A stretch of DNA of 64,000 nt from Candidatus Eisenbacteria bacterium RBG_16_71_46 (GTDB lineage: Bacteria; Eisenbacteria; RBG-16-71-46), in the NCBI GenBank assembly GCA_001780165.1, contig MFFQ01000066.1, positions 39,082 to 103,081 of the forward strand. Direction: 5' to 3'. The notes beneath the pieces were generated by a model that saw only the letters and a program-made list of their open reading frames with translations, ran no database searches and was not told where the DNA came from. Positions within the stretch are counted from its first letter, which is position 1; each line of letters begins with the position of its first letter. The position numbers were made by a program, and so were the translations under genes. Of the stretch, positions 45,134 through 48,152 are shown in pieces.

Positions 45134-46630
45134 CTACTCGGCGGCTCCGGCGAGGACGACGAGCCCCGGGACCGGCGAGCCGCCTTCGTGGCGCAGCGCT
45201 GCGTGCAGGATCAGCCGCGGGGTGAGGCCCCCGGCCTGGAGCGCGCCCCGCACGTAGGTCTCGGAGTGCTGGTAGCGTCCGCTGGGCGCGATCCGGTGGG
45301 CGACGGATTCGCCCTCCGGAAGCTGCTCGAGCGTGAAGACCAGCCGCCCGCCCGGGCGCAGCGCGCGGGCGGCCGCCGCCAGCACCGGCTCGAGCGCCCC
45401 GAAGTAGATCAGCGTGTCCCCGCCGGCGACGAGGTCGAAGGCGTCCGGGTGCTCGTCCAGGTAGGCGACCAGCTCCCGCTCGACCAGCTCGTCGTAGGCC
45501 CCGCGCCTTCGCGCGTAGGACAGCATCGCGGCCGAGAGATCGACTCCGACCAGGCGGAGGGCGTGGGGGCGGAGCACCTCGGCGCACAGGCCGGTGCCGC
45601 AGCCCGCGTCGAGCACCTCGAGCGCGCCCGCCGCCTCGAGCCCGTCCTTCGCCAGCGCGATCCCGATCAGCGCCGGTCCGCGGTAGCCGAGCCGCTCGAG
45701 CGTCGCGTCGTAGTCGGAGGCGAAGCGGTCGAAGGTCTCGCGCACGCAGTCGTCGCTCGCGCGCTCCGGCACGTCGGCCCCGGTGAGGGCCGCGAAGAGG
45801 TGCGCCGCGAGGGGGTCCTCGGGCGCGCGTGACTGCCACTCCGCGAGCGCCTGGACCGCCTCGCCAAAGCGTCCCAGCCGCTCGAGCGCCCGCACCAGGT
45901 TCTCGTTCGCGACCGGGGAATTCGGCTCGATCTCGATCGAACGGCGATACGCCACTGCCGCGTCGGCGAGGCGTCCCAGGGCGTCCAGCGTCTTGCCGGC
46001 CCTGAAGTGCTCGGAGGCGGCGAGCGGCTCGATCGCGATCGAGCGCTCGAACGAGGCCAGGGCGTCCTCGAAGCGGCCGAGCCGATAGAGGGCCTCGCCC
46101 AGGCAGCTGTGGGCCGCGGGGGATTCCGGGACGATCTCGACCGCGCGCCGGAAGTGCGACTCGGCCTCGCCGAGGCGCCCCTGGTCCTCGAACAGCCGGC
46201 CCAGATTGAAGTGGGCCGCGAACGACCACGGATCGAGCGAGAGCACCCGGCGGTAGCACTGCTCGGCCTGATCCAGGCGCCCGTCCACCTGCAGCGCGTG
46301 CCCGAGGTTGTAGTGGGCCGGCGCCAGAGTCGGGTTGACCTCGATCGCCCGGCGGTAGGCCCACTCGGCTTCGGTCATCCGCTTCTGGGTCTCGTAGAGG
46401 ACGCCGAGGTTGTTGAGGGCCCTGACGGATTTCGGGTCGCGTTCGAGCAGCTGCCGGTAGCACCTCTCGGCCTGCTCGAAGTGTCCTCCCGCCTGGAGGG
46501 CCTTGGCCTTCTCGAGCAGGTAGGTGTCCATCACCGGCCCCGGCGGGATCTCGCCGCGGGGGGGCGGATCCTCCCGGGGCGCCGGCACCCCGGGCTCACC
46601 GGGAGGCGGCAGGTCGTCGGGATCCGTCAT
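45134..46630 (-). CDS. TPR-repeat protein fused to a class I SAM-dependent methyltransferase.
   Basis: Multiple TPR-like repeats (AxxNLGxxY...). C-terminal VLDAGCGTGL (SAM motif I) and DLVAGGDTLIYF blocks. Start ATG 46630, 19 nt downstream of the sheath-fusion gene stop. Confidence 0.75.
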   Translation of the reverse strand: MTDPDDLPPPGEPGVPAPREDPPPRGEIPPGPVMDTYLLEKAKALQAGGHFEQAERCYRQLLERDPKSVRALNNLGVLYETQKRMTEAEWAYRRAIEVNPTLAPAHYNLGHALQVDGRLDQAEQCYRRVLSLDPWSFAAHFNLGRLFEDQGRLGEAESHFRRAVEIVPESPAAHSCLGEALYRLGRFEDALASFERSIAIEPLAASEHFRAGKTLDALGRLADAAVAYRRSIEIEPNSPVANENLVRALERLGRFGEAVQALAEWQSRAPEDPLAAHLFAALTGADVPERASDDCVRETFDRFASDYDATLERLGYRGPALIGIALAKDGLEAAGALEVLDAGCGTGLCAEVLRPHALRLVGVDLSAAMLSYARRRGAYDELVERELVAYLDEHPDAFDLVAGGDTLIYFGALEPVLAAAARALRPGGRLVFTLEQLPEGESVAHRIAPSGRYQHSETYVRGALQAGGLTPRLILHAALRHEGGSPVPGLVVLAGAAE

Positions 46631-46649
46631 GCGGCGGACGTCCGCCACC

Positions 46650-48152
46650 TCAACTCCAGGGACCGGCCAGCGCGGCGGCGGGATCGGCGAGCGACTGGAA
46701 CCGGACCAGGCGCACCGCATTGCGATCGGGAAAGCTCATGAAGGGCATGATGCCTCGCCCCAGGATCGCCTCCAGCGCCCGCTCGGTGAGCACGACCTCG
46801 GCGCACGGCTGGAGCCGCGACTCCCCGTCGAGACGGTAGGTATGGGCCGGGAGGCTCCCGAGCTCGAGATGGTCGCCGGGGTCCATCGACCAACCGCTCT
46901 CCAGAAAGGAGTTCGCCAGCAGCGTCGCGCACGCGAAGGCGGGATTGCCCCACAGGTAAGCCTCGTGGTCGCGTTCCGGCGGCAGCTCCTCGAATGCGAA
47001 CCGCTCGGTGGCGTCGGTGCGTGGGCCGTAGGGCAGGCGCGAGAGCACGCGCGGCATCGCGAGGCCGATCCAGCGTGCCCATGCGCTGCTCCGCAGCGCC
47101 GCCCAGCGCTCCTCTTCCCCCGCCTCGAACGGGCGCCACGCCCGCGGATCCGGTGCCGCGGCCAGCGAGCCGCATCCGAGGATCGCCGGCGTCGCTGCGG
47201 CCAGGAACGGTCCTCCCGCGCGGGAGGCGATCGCCCCCAACGCACCGAGCAGTACCACGTCCTCGGGGTTACTCCCGAACGCGTAGCCGCCGACGATCAC
47301 CGACCAGGGACCGGCTCCGGGAGTGCCGGCGCCGCGCTCGACCAGTTGCCGGTAGGTGGCACTCCGCTCGAGTTCTCCGCCCGACGCGACCAGGTCCGCG
47401 GCCAGCTCCTGCCGCGTGACGTCGAGGAGCGAGACCTGGATCTCCTCACCGATCTCGATCTGCGAGAGCAGGCCCTCGATCGAGCGCCACGTGGATTCGA
47501 GCGCCTGGAAGGCGGGATGATGCAGCAGGGCGCGCGTCTGCCGGCTGATCGTGCGATCGACCGACGCGATCCACTCCGCCTGGCGCGGATCCGCCTGCGG
47601 CACGACGTCGGCGGCGATCATCCCCTTCACCATGCGCCGCACGTCCTCGCGCAGCCGGCCCTCGACGCGGACGCCCCCGAGGTCGCGGGGAGCGCTGCCG
47701 AGCAGACGGCCGATGGTCTCCGCGTCCTCCTCCGCCACGATGGTCGCGCGCGGCGTCGCGGCCTCCGCGCCGCCCAATTCCGCCGCGGTGGTCTCGAACG
47801 TGGCGGGATCCTGGAGCCGGCGCCGGGTCTCGCGCAGCGCCTCGAACAGACCGAGGCGCTGGAATAGCTCGTCGGGATGGAATTCGCCGATGCCGCCGAA
47901 TTCGATCGCCAGCTCGGGCCCCGAGGGGTCGAGCCGCAGCCGGAGCCCGGGTGCGAGGCGCGCGAAGGTCGTTTCGAGGGTCTCGTGGCTCAGGGCCATC
48001 TGCGGCCGCTCGGCCAACGGCTGTGCCGCGTCGGGCTGCCGCTGGCCGCGGCCACCGAGGTCCGCGAGGACGAGGACGCGCATCGGAGCCCCCGCGCGGG
48101 GCGCGGGGCGCGGGCTCCGATCGTCTCCGCCGAAACGGAATTCGAATCGCAT
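46650..48152 (-). CDS. Fused TssB-TssC-like contractile-sheath paralog (single ~500-aa polypeptide).
   Basis: N-terminal ~120 aa align to TssB: MRFEFRF / RVQIEYDV; VLVLADLGG / VMGVLADLSG; IEFGGIGEFHPDELFQRLGL / ITFESMDDFSPAAVARKVGA. The rest aligns to TssC: LLHHPAFQALESTWRSIEGLL / ILHQAEFQKLEGAWRGLYHLV; GLAMPRVLSRLPYGPRTDATERFAFEE / GLAMPRFLARLPYGAKTSPVEEFDFEE; YLWGNPAFACATLLANSFLESGW / YTWANSAYAMAVNINKSFKEFGW; LPAHTY / LPVHTF. Start chosen at the TssB-homologous Met (48152). Confidence 0.7.
   Translation of the reverse strand: MRFEFRFGGDDRSPRPAPRAGAPMRVLVLADLGGRGQRQPDAAQPLAERPQMALSHETLETTFARLAPGLRLRLDPSGPELAIEFGGIGEFHPDELFQRLGLFEALRETRRRLQDPATFETTAAELGGAEAATPRATIVAEEDAETIGRLLGSAPRDLGGVRVEGRLREDVRRMVKGMIAADVVPQADPRQAEWIASVDRTISRQTRALLHHPAFQALESTWRSIEGLLSQIEIGEEIQVSLLDVTRQELAADLVASGGELERSATYRQLVERGAGTPGAGPWSVIVGGYAFGSNPEDVVLLGALGAIASRAGGPFLAAATPAILGCGSLAAAPDPRAWRPFEAGEEERWAALRSSAWARWIGLAMPRVLSRLPYGPRTDATERFAFEELPPERDHEAYLWGNPAFACATLLANSFLESGWSMDPGDHLELGSLPAHTYRLDGESRLQPCAEVVLTERALEAILGRGIMPFMSFPDRNAVRLVRFQSLADPAAALAGPWS

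What the first reader, a model, noticed from the sequence alone, without database searches (positions are those of the whole stretch)
45134..48152. Sheath-fusion gene is co-operonic with a TPR-SAM methyltransferase inserted between clpV and vgrG
The stop of the TssB-C fusion gene (46650) lies 19 nt upstream of the ATG (46630) of a TPR-repeat plus class I SAM methyltransferase gene on the same minus strand. This two-gene unit, together with the Lipase_3 gene, interrupts the usual clpV-vgrG adjacency. TPR domains are protein-protein interaction modules. Pairing one with a methyltransferase beside a sheath-like protein suggests post-translational modification or chaperoning of a T6SS component. 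I am not aware of such a mechanism being described for T6SS sheath proteins.
Basis: inference. Interest (0 to 1): 0.65.

Follow-up and report, generated by a model that had tools for sequence, protein, structure and literature searches.

The report
T6SS sheath-like gene plus TPR methyltransferase
Between clpV and vgrG of a complete type VI secretion cluster sit a truncated sheath-like fusion gene and a TPR-methyltransferase gene 19 nt apart on one strand; comparison with about 100 related loci shows that each gene recurs next to vgrG on its own, so they are not an obligate pair, but the methyltransferase is a repeated secretion-locus companion that I found described nowhere.

Summary
On the minus strand, a 500-aa TssB-like/TssC-N-domain fusion (46650-48152) ends 19 nt before a 498-aa protein with seven TPR repeats and a class I SAM methyltransferase domain (45134-46630). 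The pair lies between clpV plus a Lipase_3 gene and vgrG, all on the plus strand, in a complete H1-like T6SS cluster of a Candidatus Eisenbacteria MAG.

The same-strand, 19-25 nt arrangement recurs only in the closest relatives (L081, L082, L083). In 84 fusion-bearing loci, 15 carry a TPR-MT (14 scored, plus a truncated copy in L082). Orientation and position vary: four are same-strand adjacent, four convergent adjacent, and seven are separated or upstream.

The fusion's constant partner is a divergent vgrG (52 of 84 loci). TPR-MT homologues also sit in the clpV-vgrG slot or beside vgrG/PAAR with no fusion present (L092, L093, L094, L096, L088). Other family members are not T6SS-linked at all (L085, L086, L087, L095, L097).

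Best reading: these are two independent accessory genes that recur close to vgrG, joined into one probable operon in this lineage. The methyltransferase looks catalytically intact and has an OGT-like TPR superhelix. A protein substrate in or near the T6SS is plausible but unproven. I found no literature on either gene.

The parts
46650..48164 (-). Sheath-like paralogue. It is a single chain with a TssB-like N part (residues 21-121), a disordered linker (about 130-185) and a TssC N-domain (about 190-492). The TssC C-terminal VipB_2 domain is absent. The annotated start is ATG 48152; the probable start is GTG 48164.
   Evidence: Pfam VipB E 8e-65 and weak VipA. Scores fall below the NCBIfam sheath cut-offs. 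hhalign to the window's TssB gives 97% probability. It is 33% identical to residues 58-374 of the window's TssC. The AF2 model has pLDDT 86. Foldseek finds TssC chains at E 1e-20 to 1e-23 and TssB weakly. The SD and GTG start are conserved in L081.
46631..46649 (-). 19-nt spacer between the fusion stop codon and the methyltransferase ATG. It contains the palindrome GGCGGACGTCCGCC.
   Evidence: Read directly. The hairpin is no more stable than in shuffled sequence (z 0.76). The spacer sequence is not conserved in L081-L083, but its length is (19-25 nt).
45134..46630 (-). TPR-repeat class I SAM-dependent methyltransferase, 498 aa, of the COG4976-like type named 'predicted TPR repeat methyltransferase'.
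   Evidence: Pfam TPR families and Methyltransf_11/25/12 pass their cut-offs. Homologues carry that name in JGI annotation. The AF2 model has pLDDT 92.4 and pTM 0.84.
45782..46537 (-). TPR superhelix, residues about 32-283, made of seven helix pairs plus a capping helix.
   Evidence: AF2 secondary structure. Foldseek best matches are consensus TPR superhelices and the TPR domains of OGT and SPINDLY.
45143..45754 (-). Methyltransferase domain, residues about 293-496, with motif I LDAGCGTG.
   Evidence: D341, G343, C344, G345, T346, G347 and D364 are invariant in 74 homologues. PDB sequence hits are generic class I methyltransferases; the best is 8ys9 at E 1e-9.
48165..48244 (.). Divergent intergenic region between the fusion gene and vgrG. 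It has a core of about 55 nt conserved in the closest relatives and probably holds shared divergent promoters or an operator.
   Evidence: Comparison of the window with L081, L082 and L083. No sigma-70 consensus match was found.
48245..50410 (+). vgrG, transcribed divergently from the fusion gene.
   Evidence: Pfam Phage_GPD, Phage_base_V and Gp5_trimer_C. A divergent adjacent vgrG occurs in 52 of 84 fusion loci.
43861..45114 (+). Lipase_3 gene, a probable Tle2-like lipase effector, convergent with the methyltransferase gene. It is a variable insert and is absent from L081.
   Evidence: Pfam Lipase_3 E 7e-19. In L081, clpV abuts the methyltransferase gene directly. No lipase homologue was found in the other loci.
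41024..43789 (+). clpV, the last core gene of the plus-strand T6SS operon before the slot that holds the pair.
   Evidence: Pfam AAA_2, AAA_lid_9 and ClpB_D2-small.
33862..35971 (+). Canonical tssB (33862-34485) and tssC (34478-35971), the real sheath genes of this cluster.
   Evidence: Pfam VipA E 8e-57; VipB E 4e-129 plus VipB_2 E 2e-44.

Best explanation
The window carries a complete H1-like T6SS cluster. Between clpV and vgrG, its own lineage has assembled a probable two-gene operon from two separate accessory genes that both recur close to vgrG.

Gene 1 is a single-chain paralogue of the sheath protomer. It has a TssB core fused to the TssC N-domain. It lacks the TssC C-terminal domain and the N-terminal segments of both TssB and TssC. 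From published sheath structures, recalled rather than tested here, those parts mediate sheath polymerisation and ClpV/TagJ recycling. It is therefore unlikely to be a building block of the sheath. Its constant partner is a divergently transcribed vgrG.

Gene 2 is a catalytically intact class I SAM methyltransferase that sits behind a seven-repeat TPR superhelix. Protein-modifying enzymes such as OGT and SPINDLY have the same layout. It most likely uses the TPR to recruit a protein and methylate it, and the substrate most likely belongs to, or regulates, the T6SS spike or machinery.

Shown: gene structures, domain content, and the pattern of conservation and assortment. Inferred: co-transcription, catalytic activity, a protein substrate, and a T6SS target. 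The confidence of 0.5 is a compromise. The descriptive part (two independent accessory genes close to vgrG, joined in this lineage) would rate about 0.85. The mechanistic part (a protein methyltransferase acting on a T6SS-related protein) would rate about 0.35-0.4.
For: Cluster: all 13 core genes are present, plus tagJ, PP2C and a Ser/Thr kinase.

Pair geometry: same strand, 19-nt gap, no terminator-like site. The same layout occurs in L081, L082 and L083.

Independence of the two genes:
- A divergent adjacent vgrG occurs in 52 of 84 fusion loci. A TPR-MT occurs in 15 of them (14 scored, plus a truncated copy in L082).
- Where clpV and vgrG are both visible, 9 of 13 loci have the MT. In orphan vgrG islands only 2 of 30 do.
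- The MT's orientation and position vary.
- The MT occurs without the fusion, in the same slot or beside vgrG/PAAR, in L092 (an Undibacterium isolate), L093, L094 and L096. A TPR-less form occurs in L088 (no fusion) and L089 (fusion 7.6 kb away).

MT activity: motif I and the acidic residue at the end of beta-2 are invariant in 74 homologues. The model is confident (pLDDT 92, pTM 0.84).

Architecture: the TPR superhelix matches those of OGT and SPY.

Fusion: it is TssB-like and TssC-N-like, and the C-terminal domain is missing.
Against: - There is no transcript, biochemical or interaction evidence of any kind.
- The MT family is large and not T6SS-specific. Five of twelve contexts sampled from the MT side have no T6SS gene nearby (L085, L086, L087, L095 Azospirillum, L097 Ralstonia).
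- A neighbour-joining tree of the MT domain does not separate linked from unlinked members.
- The MT domain's nearest solved relatives are small-molecule and lipid methyltransferases as often as protein methyltransferases, so a protein substrate is not established.
- The clpV-vgrG slot is a known dumping ground for variable cargo genes, so position alone is weak evidence of an accessory role.
Confidence: 0.5

Rival explanations
1. One reading: the methyltransferase is a dedicated partner of the sheath-like fusion. Its TPR would bind the fusion protein, and the enzyme would methylate or chaperone it. The 19-nt operon junction would then reflect that functional pairing.
For: The co-directional, tightly spaced pair occurs in the window and in L081, L082 and L083. 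The two genes are adjacent, on either strand, in 8 of the 15 loci that have both. Matching contig lengths suggest further co-occurring pairs: P0005/P0250, P0012/P0253 and P0036/P0277.
Against: 69 of 84 fusion loci lack the MT. The MT sits in T6SS or vgrG loci with no fusion in L092, L093, L094, L096 and L088. Four loci have the genes convergent and seven have them apart, so co-transcription is not conserved.
Confidence: 0.12
2. The TPR-methyltransferase is T6SS cargo or part of an effector module. It would be a toxin that methylates a target-cell molecule and is delivered on the VgrG/PAAR spike, with the TPR serving for loading.
For: It lies in the variable effector slot, next to lipase, phospholipase, peptidase-like and amidase genes. 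In Thiodictyon pTs485 it follows a PAAR gene directly: vgrG | PAAR, MT, TPR-MT. Tandem duplicates occur in L020, L086 and L096. Tandem duplication is common among polymorphic toxins (general knowledge).
Against: No conserved adjacent immunity-like gene was seen. In L081 the gene is flanked only by the fusion gene and clpV. Full-length conservation of 40-65% across phyla at the same position is unusual for cargo. The protein has no PAAR, Rhs or other known trafficking domain. Many family members lie outside T6SS loci.
Confidence: 0.15
3. The enzyme is a lipid or small-molecule methyltransferase functionally tied to the neighbouring lipase effectors, for example by modifying phospholipid head groups.
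For: The best PDB sequence match of the MT domain is a phosphatidylethanolamine N-methyltransferase (8ys9, E 1e-9). Lipase or phospholipase genes lie next to the MT in the window (Lipase_3), L088 and L089 (LIP), L093 (phospholipase-like) and L097 (patatin).
Against: The margin over generic methyltransferases is small (the next hits are at 2e-8 to 1e-7). No phospholipid N-methyltransferase model appears among the top NCBIfam matches. L081, L092 and L094 have no lipase next to the MT. A seven-repeat TPR superhelix is hard to explain for a lipid substrate.
Confidence: 0.08
4. The neighbourhood is coincidental. The methyltransferase is a housekeeping or signalling enzyme unrelated to type VI secretion that happens to have landed in a recombination-prone slot.
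For: The family is very large: 2602 hits at E<=1e-30 among the scored candidates. Members occur in unrelated contexts such as TPR-rich regions, kinase/CHAT/caspase neighbourhoods and metabolic genes.
Against: The MT recurs in the same slot across Eisenbacteria-like, Alpha-, Beta- and Gammaproteobacteria and Terriglobia. All three arbitrarily chosen full-length homologues are T6SS-linked. Nine of 13 main-cluster loci have it, against 2 of 30 orphan islands.
Confidence: 0.1

Closest known systems
Pseudomonas aeruginosa H1-T6SS-type cluster (tssA-B-C-hcp-tagJ-tssE-F-G-clpV-vgrG, with ppkA/pppA)
   Same: The core gene order tssA, tssB, tssC, hcp, tagJ(ImpE), tssE, tssF, tssG, clpV is the same, and a PP2C phosphatase and a Ser/Thr kinase lie upstream. 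The H1 gene order is from my own knowledge.
   Different: clpV and vgrG are separated by three genes: Lipase_3 on the plus strand, then the TPR-MT and the sheath-like fusion on the minus strand. tssJ, K, L and M lie on the same strand upstream rather than in a divergent operon.
TssB/TssC (VipA/VipB) contractile sheath protomer
   Same: The fusion's residues 21-121 are homologous to the TssB core. Residues about 190-492 match the TssC N-domain in sequence and fold.
   Different: It is a single chain. It lacks the TssC C-terminal VipB_2 domain, TssC residues 1-57 and TssB residues 1-63. It scores below the NCBIfam equivalog cut-offs. It coexists with a canonical tssBC pair and is paired with vgrG rather than with the sheath genes.
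COG4976-type 'predicted TPR repeat methyltransferase' proteins (function unknown)
   Same: N-terminal TPR repeats followed by a C-terminal Methyltransf_11/23/25 domain. Homologues carry exactly this name in JGI annotation, and the MT domain is 40-57% identical.
   Different: A substantial subset, including this gene, is embedded in T6SS or vgrG loci. I found no published statement of that association.
O-GlcNAc transferase / SPINDLY (TPR superhelix feeding a catalytic domain)
   Same: The predicted N-terminal TPR superhelix is structurally closest to the OGT and SPY TPR domains and is followed by a transferase domain. It may work the same way, recruiting protein substrates through the TPR.
   Different: The catalytic domain is a Rossmann-fold SAM methyltransferase, not a GT-B glycosyltransferase. 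The two are not homologous outside the TPR. Substrate threading has not been tested.
Known T6SS post-translational control and spike accessory proteins (PpkA/PppA/Fha threonine phosphorylation; DUF4123, DUF1795 and DUF2169/Tvp adaptors)
   Same: These are accessory genes encoded next to vgrG or inside the cluster that act on machine components or cargo. This cluster also has PP2C, a kinase, and DUF2169 and PAAR-like genes (Tvp proteins in PMC13373197).
   Different: None of the known accessory proteins is a methyltransferase or a sheath paralogue. I found no report of methylation of T6SS proteins.

Membership tests
Functional T6SS sheath subunit (TssB/TssC) | TssC N-terminal domain (PF05943) | tested here: met
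   E 8e-65 over residues 193-487. It aligns to TssC1 (5n8n_B) at E 2e-51, and Foldseek gives E 8e-23.
Functional T6SS sheath subunit (TssB/TssC) | TssC C-terminal gp25-like domain (PF18945, VipB_2) | tested here: not met
   No VipB_2 hit in the fusion, whereas the window's own TssC has it at E 2e-44. The fusion ends where TssC residue ~374 aligns.
Functional T6SS sheath subunit (TssB/TssC) | Scores above the NCBIfam equivalog cut-offs TIGR03355 and TIGR03358 | tested here: not met
   218.4 bits against a cut-off of 271.5, and 21.4 against 97.25.
Functional T6SS sheath subunit (TssB/TssC) | TssB (VipA) domain | tested here: inconclusive
   Pfam gives 22.9 bits, below the gathering score of 24. 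hhalign gives 97% probability to TssB residues 64-166, and most homologues carry PF05591. TssB residues 1-63 have no counterpart.
Functional T6SS sheath subunit (TssB/TssC) | Polymerises around Hcp and is recycled by ClpV | not testable with these tools
   This needs microscopy or biochemistry. The N-terminal TssC segment, which by my recollection of the literature carries the ClpV-binding helix, is absent by alignment.
Class I SAM-dependent methyltransferase | Pfam methyltransferase models above their gathering scores | tested here: met
   Methyltransf_11 54.4 bits (cut-off 21.2), Methyltransf_25 51.2 (27), Methyltransf_12 50.6 (30).
Class I SAM-dependent methyltransferase | Glycine-rich motif I and an acidic residue at the end of beta-2 | tested here: met
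   LDAGCGTG is present. D341, G343, C344, G345, T346, G347 and D364 are invariant in 74 sequences.
Class I SAM-dependent methyltransferase | Rossmann-like alpha/beta fold | tested here: met
   The AF2 model has alternating strands and helices over residues 337-496 at pLDDT above 90.
Class I SAM-dependent methyltransferase | SAM binding, methyl transfer, and the identity of the substrate | not testable with these tools
   This needs an enzyme assay or mass spectrometry.
COG4976-like TPR-repeat methyltransferase | N-terminal TPR array fused to a C-terminal methyltransferase domain | tested here: met
   Homologues are named 'predicted TPR repeat methyltransferase'.
Bicistronic operon (fusion gene followed by MT gene) | Same strand, short spacer, no intervening terminator or promoter signal | tested here: met
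   The gap is 19 nt. No terminator-like or promoter-like site was found in 44900-48400.
Bicistronic operon (fusion gene followed by MT gene) | Arrangement conserved in related genomes | tested here: inconclusive
   It is conserved in the three closest relatives. It is not conserved in 11 more distant loci that carry both genes.
Bicistronic operon (fusion gene followed by MT gene) | A single transcript spans both genes | not testable with these tools
   No expression data exist for this uncultured MAG.
T6SS-i main cluster | All 13 core components are encoded | tested here: met
   TssJ, K, L, M, A, B, C, Hcp, TssE and TssF; TssG; ClpV and VgrG.
T6SS-dedicated accessory (Tag-like) protein, applied to the TPR-MT | Gene family preferentially encoded in T6SS loci across taxa | tested here: inconclusive
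   Six of twelve MT-side contexts are T6SS- or vgrG-linked, five are not, and one is ambiguous. Nine of 13 main-cluster fusion loci carry it. No genome-wide statistic was possible.
T6SS-dedicated accessory (Tag-like) protein, applied to the TPR-MT | Loss affects T6SS assembly, firing or cargo | not testable with these tools
   This needs genetics in a cultured carrier.

The most novel reading that the evidence does not exclude
A clade of TPR-SAM methyltransferases is a previously unrecognised T6SS accessory enzyme. It would methylate a spike or machine component (VgrG/PAAR, a sheath-related protein or a regulator). That would add protein methylation to threonine phosphorylation as a post-translational control of type VI secretion. 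Separately, the truncated single-chain TssB-TssC paralogue paired with vgrG would be a new spike-associated factor rather than a sheath subunit.
Probability: 0.25. Interest if true: 0.75.

Novelty: new variant of a known kind. Interest (0 to 1): 0.45.

Why it matters
T6SS regulation and cargo loading are known to depend on accessory genes encoded beside vgrG. In the searchable literature, no methyltransferase and no sheath paralogue has been assigned such a role.

Here both genes recur next to vgrG across several phyla, and some carriers are cultured (Undibacterium sp. TJN25, Methylobacter luteus, Methylobacter marinus). That makes a concrete question testable: does protein methylation act on the type VI machine?

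The work also corrects the natural assumption from this window that the two genes form a dedicated pair.

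Tried and rejected
- **Metagenome scan with the TPR-MT.** It returned only a fragment of the same organism (L090) and an unrelated TPR hit, so it gave no information.
- **Search with the MT domain alone.** It was swamped by generic short homologues and missed the true orthologues. Repeating it with the full-length protein worked.
- **Neighbour-joining trees of the MT domain.** T6SS-linked members are scattered among several subclades and mixed with unlinked ones. 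I therefore do not claim a monophyletic T6SS clade.
- **Palindrome in the 19-nt spacer.** The RNA fold is no more stable than shuffled sequence (z 0.76), and the sequence is not conserved in relatives. I rejected it as a regulatory hairpin.
- **Sigma-70 promoter and intrinsic terminator scan of 44900-48400.** It found nothing, which is uninformative in a 70% GC non-model phylum.
- **Fold search with the whole TPR-MT model.** The TPR dominated the results, so nothing was learnt about the MT domain's substrate class.
- **Lipase as a conserved third partner.** No Lipase_3 homologue occurs in any other locus, and L081 has none.
- **A universal downstream partner of the fusion gene.** Clustering of downstream ORFs found none. 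The TPR-MT was the most frequent (10 loci within 2.5 kb). Competibacter-type loci carry unrelated genes there.
- **Literature searches.** Searches for a TssBC fusion paralogue, a T6SS methyltransferase, COG4976 and DUF770/DUF877 found nothing relevant.

Full report
**1. What is in the window**

The window is about 70% GC. The fusion protein is 100% identical to a protein of "Candidatus Eisenbacteria bacterium RBG_16_71_46" (P0001).

Pfam scans identify a complete T6SS cluster on the plus strand:

| Gene | Coordinates |
|---|---|
| tssJ | 26207-26728 |
| tssK | 26748-28103 |
| tssL | 28105-28902 |
| tssM | 28906-32469 |
| tssA | 32824-33846 |
| tssB | 33862-34485 |
| tssC | 34478-35971 (VipB and VipB_2) |
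| hcp | 36102-36581 |
| tagJ/ImpE | 36532-37563 |
| tssE | 37529-38071 |
| tssF | 38101-39978 |
| tssG | 39975-40979 |
| clpV | 41024-43789 |

A PP2C phosphatase and a Ser/Thr kinase lie upstream. A Lipase_3 gene follows clpV on the plus strand (43861-45114). After the minus-strand pair, the plus strand resumes:

| Gene | Coordinates |
|---|---|
| vgrG | 48245-50410 |
| TIGR02270 HEAT-repeat gene | 50418-51608 |
| PAAR-like | 51982-52641 |
| DUF2169 | 52791-53804 |
| ketoacyl-synthase-like | 53678-54922 |

The core gene order is that of the P. aeruginosa H1-T6SS, in which clpV1 is followed directly by vgrG1 (my own knowledge).

**2. The observation**

Two genes lie on the minus strand between the lipase gene and vgrG.

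The upstream gene (46650-48152, 500 aa) hits the TssC N-domain PF05943 at E 8e-65 over residues 193-487. It hits VipA/TssB at 22.9 bits, just under the gathering score. Its stop codon TGA occupies 46650-46652. The ATG of the next gene is at 46630, exactly 19 nt downstream.

The downstream gene (45134-46630, 498 aa) has TPR repeats followed by Methyltransf_11/25/12. Public proteins of 500 aa and 498 aa match both gene models at 100% identity.

Four refinements apply:
- clpV, the lipase gene and vgrG are on the opposite strand to the pair.
- The fusion lacks the TssC C-terminal domain and falls below the NCBIfam sheath cut-offs.
- A canonical tssBC pair exists elsewhere in the cluster.
- The fusion probably starts four codons earlier, at GTG 48164. 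A GGGAGG Shine-Dalgarno sequence lies 6 nt upstream. The same VTGPM start is seen in L081, and the family consensus begins MPGRM.

**3. The sheath-like fusion**

A profile built from 98 homologues aligns fusion residues 21-121 with residues 64-166 of the window's own TssB at 97% probability. Residues 178-492 are 33% identical to TssC residues 58-374.

An AlphaFold model (pLDDT 86) shows a folded TssB-like part, a disordered linker at about 130-185 and a TssC-like domain. Foldseek finds TssC chains of solved sheaths at E 1e-20 to 1e-23, and M. xanthus TssB weakly.

Three segments are missing: TssB residues 1-63, TssC residues 1-57 and the roughly 120-residue C-terminal VipB_2 domain. From published sheath structures, which I recall but did not test here, these segments carry the inter-protomer linkages and the ClpV and TagJ binding sites. 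I therefore infer that this protein is not a polymerising sheath subunit.

The family is large. There were 801 hits at E<=1e-5 among the scored candidates. In one-genome-per-species GTDB data, 370 stretches encode a relative, spread over Rokubacteria, Alpha-, Beta- and Gammaproteobacteria, Acidobacteriota, Planctomycetota and Gemmatimonadota.

**4. Is the pair conserved?**

I fetched 80 genomic loci and three metagenomic loci of the closest relatives. I mapped the window's proteins onto them by tblastn.

The fusion's most constant neighbour is a divergently transcribed vgrG immediately upstream. It occurs in 52 of 84 loci, and in 47 of the 73 that have enough upstream sequence.

A full-length TPR-MT homologue (36-64% identity) lies within 10 kb in 14 loci, plus a truncated copy in L082. 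The arrangements are:

| Arrangement relative to the fusion gene | Loci |
|---|---|
| Immediately downstream, same strand, 19-25 nt gap | window, L081, L082, L083 |
| Immediately downstream, convergent | L004, L025, L046, L066 |
| Downstream but separated, 0.75-3.8 kb | L020 (two tandem copies), L005, L055, L053 |
| Upstream, on the vgrG side | L015, L033, L049 |

The same-strand group has fusion proteins about 65% identical to the window's. In L081 there is no lipase gene, and clpV abuts the MT gene directly. The Lipase_3 gene is therefore a lineage-specific insert.

Clustering all ORFs downstream of the fusion showed the TPR-MT to be the commonest downstream family, but no family is universal. 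Competibacter-type loci carry unrelated genes there.

The MT tracks the main cluster rather than the fusion. It is present in 9 of the 13 loci where both clpV and vgrG are visible. It is present in only 2 of 30 full-length loci where the fusion sits in an orphan vgrG island.

**5. The view from the methyltransferase side**

The MT domain belongs to a very large family that JGI annotates as "predicted TPR repeat methyltransferase".

The closest full-length relatives (55-67% identity, about 500 aa) include L081's protein. Several others sit on contigs whose lengths match those of fusion-bearing contigs. That is suggestive only.

I picked three hits of 44-48% identity purely because they were on long contigs. 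All three sit in H1-like T6SS clusters, between clpV and vgrG and divergent from vgrG, with no fusion gene present. They are L092 (the isolate Undibacterium sp. TJN25), L093 and L094.

Other linked contexts:
- On the Thiodictyon syntrophicum plasmid pTs485 the order is vgrG | PAAR, methyltransferase, TPR-MT.
- A TPR-less 280-aa form lies between clpV and a LIP-family lipase gene in L088 and L089. L089 also carries a fusion/vgrG pair 7.6 kb away.

Five contexts show no T6SS gene nearby: L085, L086 (three tandem paralogues among kinases, CHAT and caspase genes), L087, the Azospirillum chromids (L095) and Ralstonia (L097). L084 has only Hcp fragments and is ambiguous.

Neighbour-joining trees of the MT domain do not cleanly separate linked from unlinked members.

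In summary, the enzyme family is broad, and a large fraction of it has been recruited to T6SS or vgrG loci independently of the fusion gene.

**6. What the methyltransferase looks like**

Motif I (LDAGCGTG) and the acidic residue after beta-2 are invariant in 74 homologues. So are several Tyr, Arg, His and Glu residues outside the SAM site. This indicates an active enzyme under selection.

The AF2 model is confident (pLDDT 92.4, pTM 0.84). It has a disordered proline-rich N-terminus of about 30 residues, a seven-repeat TPR superhelix (32-283) and a Rossmann-fold domain. The TPR part is structurally closest to consensus TPR superhelices and to the TPR domains of OGT and SPINDLY. Those enzymes use the superhelix to recruit protein substrates (the mechanistic statement is from my own knowledge).

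Sequence matches to solved structures are generic class I methyltransferases. The best is a phospholipid N-methyltransferase at E 1e-9, followed by METTL27 and uncharacterised enzymes. The substrate class therefore cannot be read from the sequence.

**7. How it most likely works**

Shown:
- The two genes form a tight same-strand unit with no terminator-like signal.
- The unit is preceded by an intergenic region of 80-92 nt shared with vgrG. About 55 nt of that region is conserved in the closest relatives.

Inferred:
- One promoter in that region drives the fusion gene and the MT gene, divergently from vgrG.
- Across wider phylogeny the two genes assort independently, yet each stays close to vgrG. 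The most economical reading is that they are two separate spike- or machine-associated accessory genes that this lineage has placed in one operon.
- For the MT, I favour a protein methyltransferase that recruits a T6SS-related protein through its TPR.

Probabilities for the rivals are given in the Rival explanations section. They are a dedicated fusion-MT pair, a cargo toxin, a lipid methyltransferase linked to the lipase effectors, and coincidence. None is excluded.

**8. Comparison with what is known, and novelty**

The cluster is an ordinary H1-like T6SS. The MT is a member of the known but uncharacterised COG4976-like family. The fusion fails the membership test for a functional sheath subunit because the C-terminal domain is absent and the scores are below the equivalog cut-offs.

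Seven literature searches found no description of a T6SS-associated methyltransferase, of methylation of T6SS proteins, or of a TssB-TssC-N fusion paralogue. The library is incomplete, so prior description cannot be excluded.

I rate the finding as a new variant of a known kind. Interest is moderate. The specific operon-based hypothesis is weakened, but two recurrent, undescribed gene families located close to vgrG emerge, and cultured carriers are available for testing.

Noticed in passing
window 48153-48244 (also L081 9903-10000, L082 9836-10000, L083 7019-7103): The divergent vgrG/fusion intergenic region has a core of about 55 nt, CCTCCCCTTGCGCTCG..GGGGT.CACGAT.TC...GCG.GG.AGATTACACCA, conserved among the window and its three closest relatives. 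The fusion-MT spacer is not conserved. This is probably a shared divergent promoter or operator.
   Followed up: partly
window 48152-48164: The fusion gene probably starts at GTG 48164 (VTGPMRFEF...), with a GGGAGG Shine-Dalgarno sequence 6 nt upstream, rather than at the annotated ATG 48152. L081 has the same VTGPM codons, and the family consensus begins MPGRM.
   Followed up: partly
84 fusion-bearing loci (L001-L083 and the window): The TssB-TssC-N fusion paralogue forms a large family across phyla. Its most constant neighbour is a divergently transcribed vgrG (52 of 84 loci), often in orphan vgrG islands far from any core T6SS gene (for example in Competibacter). Its function is unknown, and I found no description in the literature searches.
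   Followed up: partly
window 50418-54922: Downstream of vgrG lie a TIGR02270 HEAT-repeat gene, a PAAR-like (Tox-PAAR-like) gene, DUF2169 and a ketoacyl-synthase-like gene. The same set recurs in L082, L093 and L094. The DUF2169 and PAAR-like genes resemble the Tvp spike-accessory complexes described in PMC13373197.
   Followed up: no
L086 10583-12914 and L092 3541-6052: A Pkinase-DUF8082 gene and a Tll0287-like/HAMP gene lie next to TPR-methyltransferases in both a T6SS locus (Undibacterium, L092) and a non-T6SS locus (Inquilinus, L086). This hints that the methyltransferase family travels with Ser/Thr-kinase signalling modules.
   Followed up: no
window 43861-45114; L088 11010-12275; L089 4370-5695; L093 11454-12125; L097 11418-12569: Lipase or phospholipase genes of four different families (Lipase_3, LIP, phospholipase-like, patatin) lie beside the methyltransferase in five contexts. 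The window's Lipase_3 gene has no obvious adjacent immunity gene: only 19 nt separate it from the convergent MT gene.
   Followed up: partly
L020 12229-14918; L086 6403-10518; L096 12759-15287: Tandem duplicates of the (TPR-)methyltransferase occur: two copies in L020, three in L086, and an MT plus a TPR-MT directly after a PAAR gene in Thiodictyon plasmid pTs485.
   Followed up: no
window 22632-26041 and 57130-58848: A PP2C phosphatase and a Ser/Thr kinase with PEGA domains lie just upstream of tssJ and are likely PppA/PpkA analogues. No FHA-domain hit was found in the ORFs scanned. A second kinase fused to TPR repeats lies at 57130-58848.
   Followed up: no
window 46631-46649: The 19-nt spacer contains a perfect 14-nt palindrome, GGCGGACGTCCGCC. 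The predicted hairpin is no more stable than in shuffled sequence, and the palindrome is absent from relatives.
   Followed up: yes
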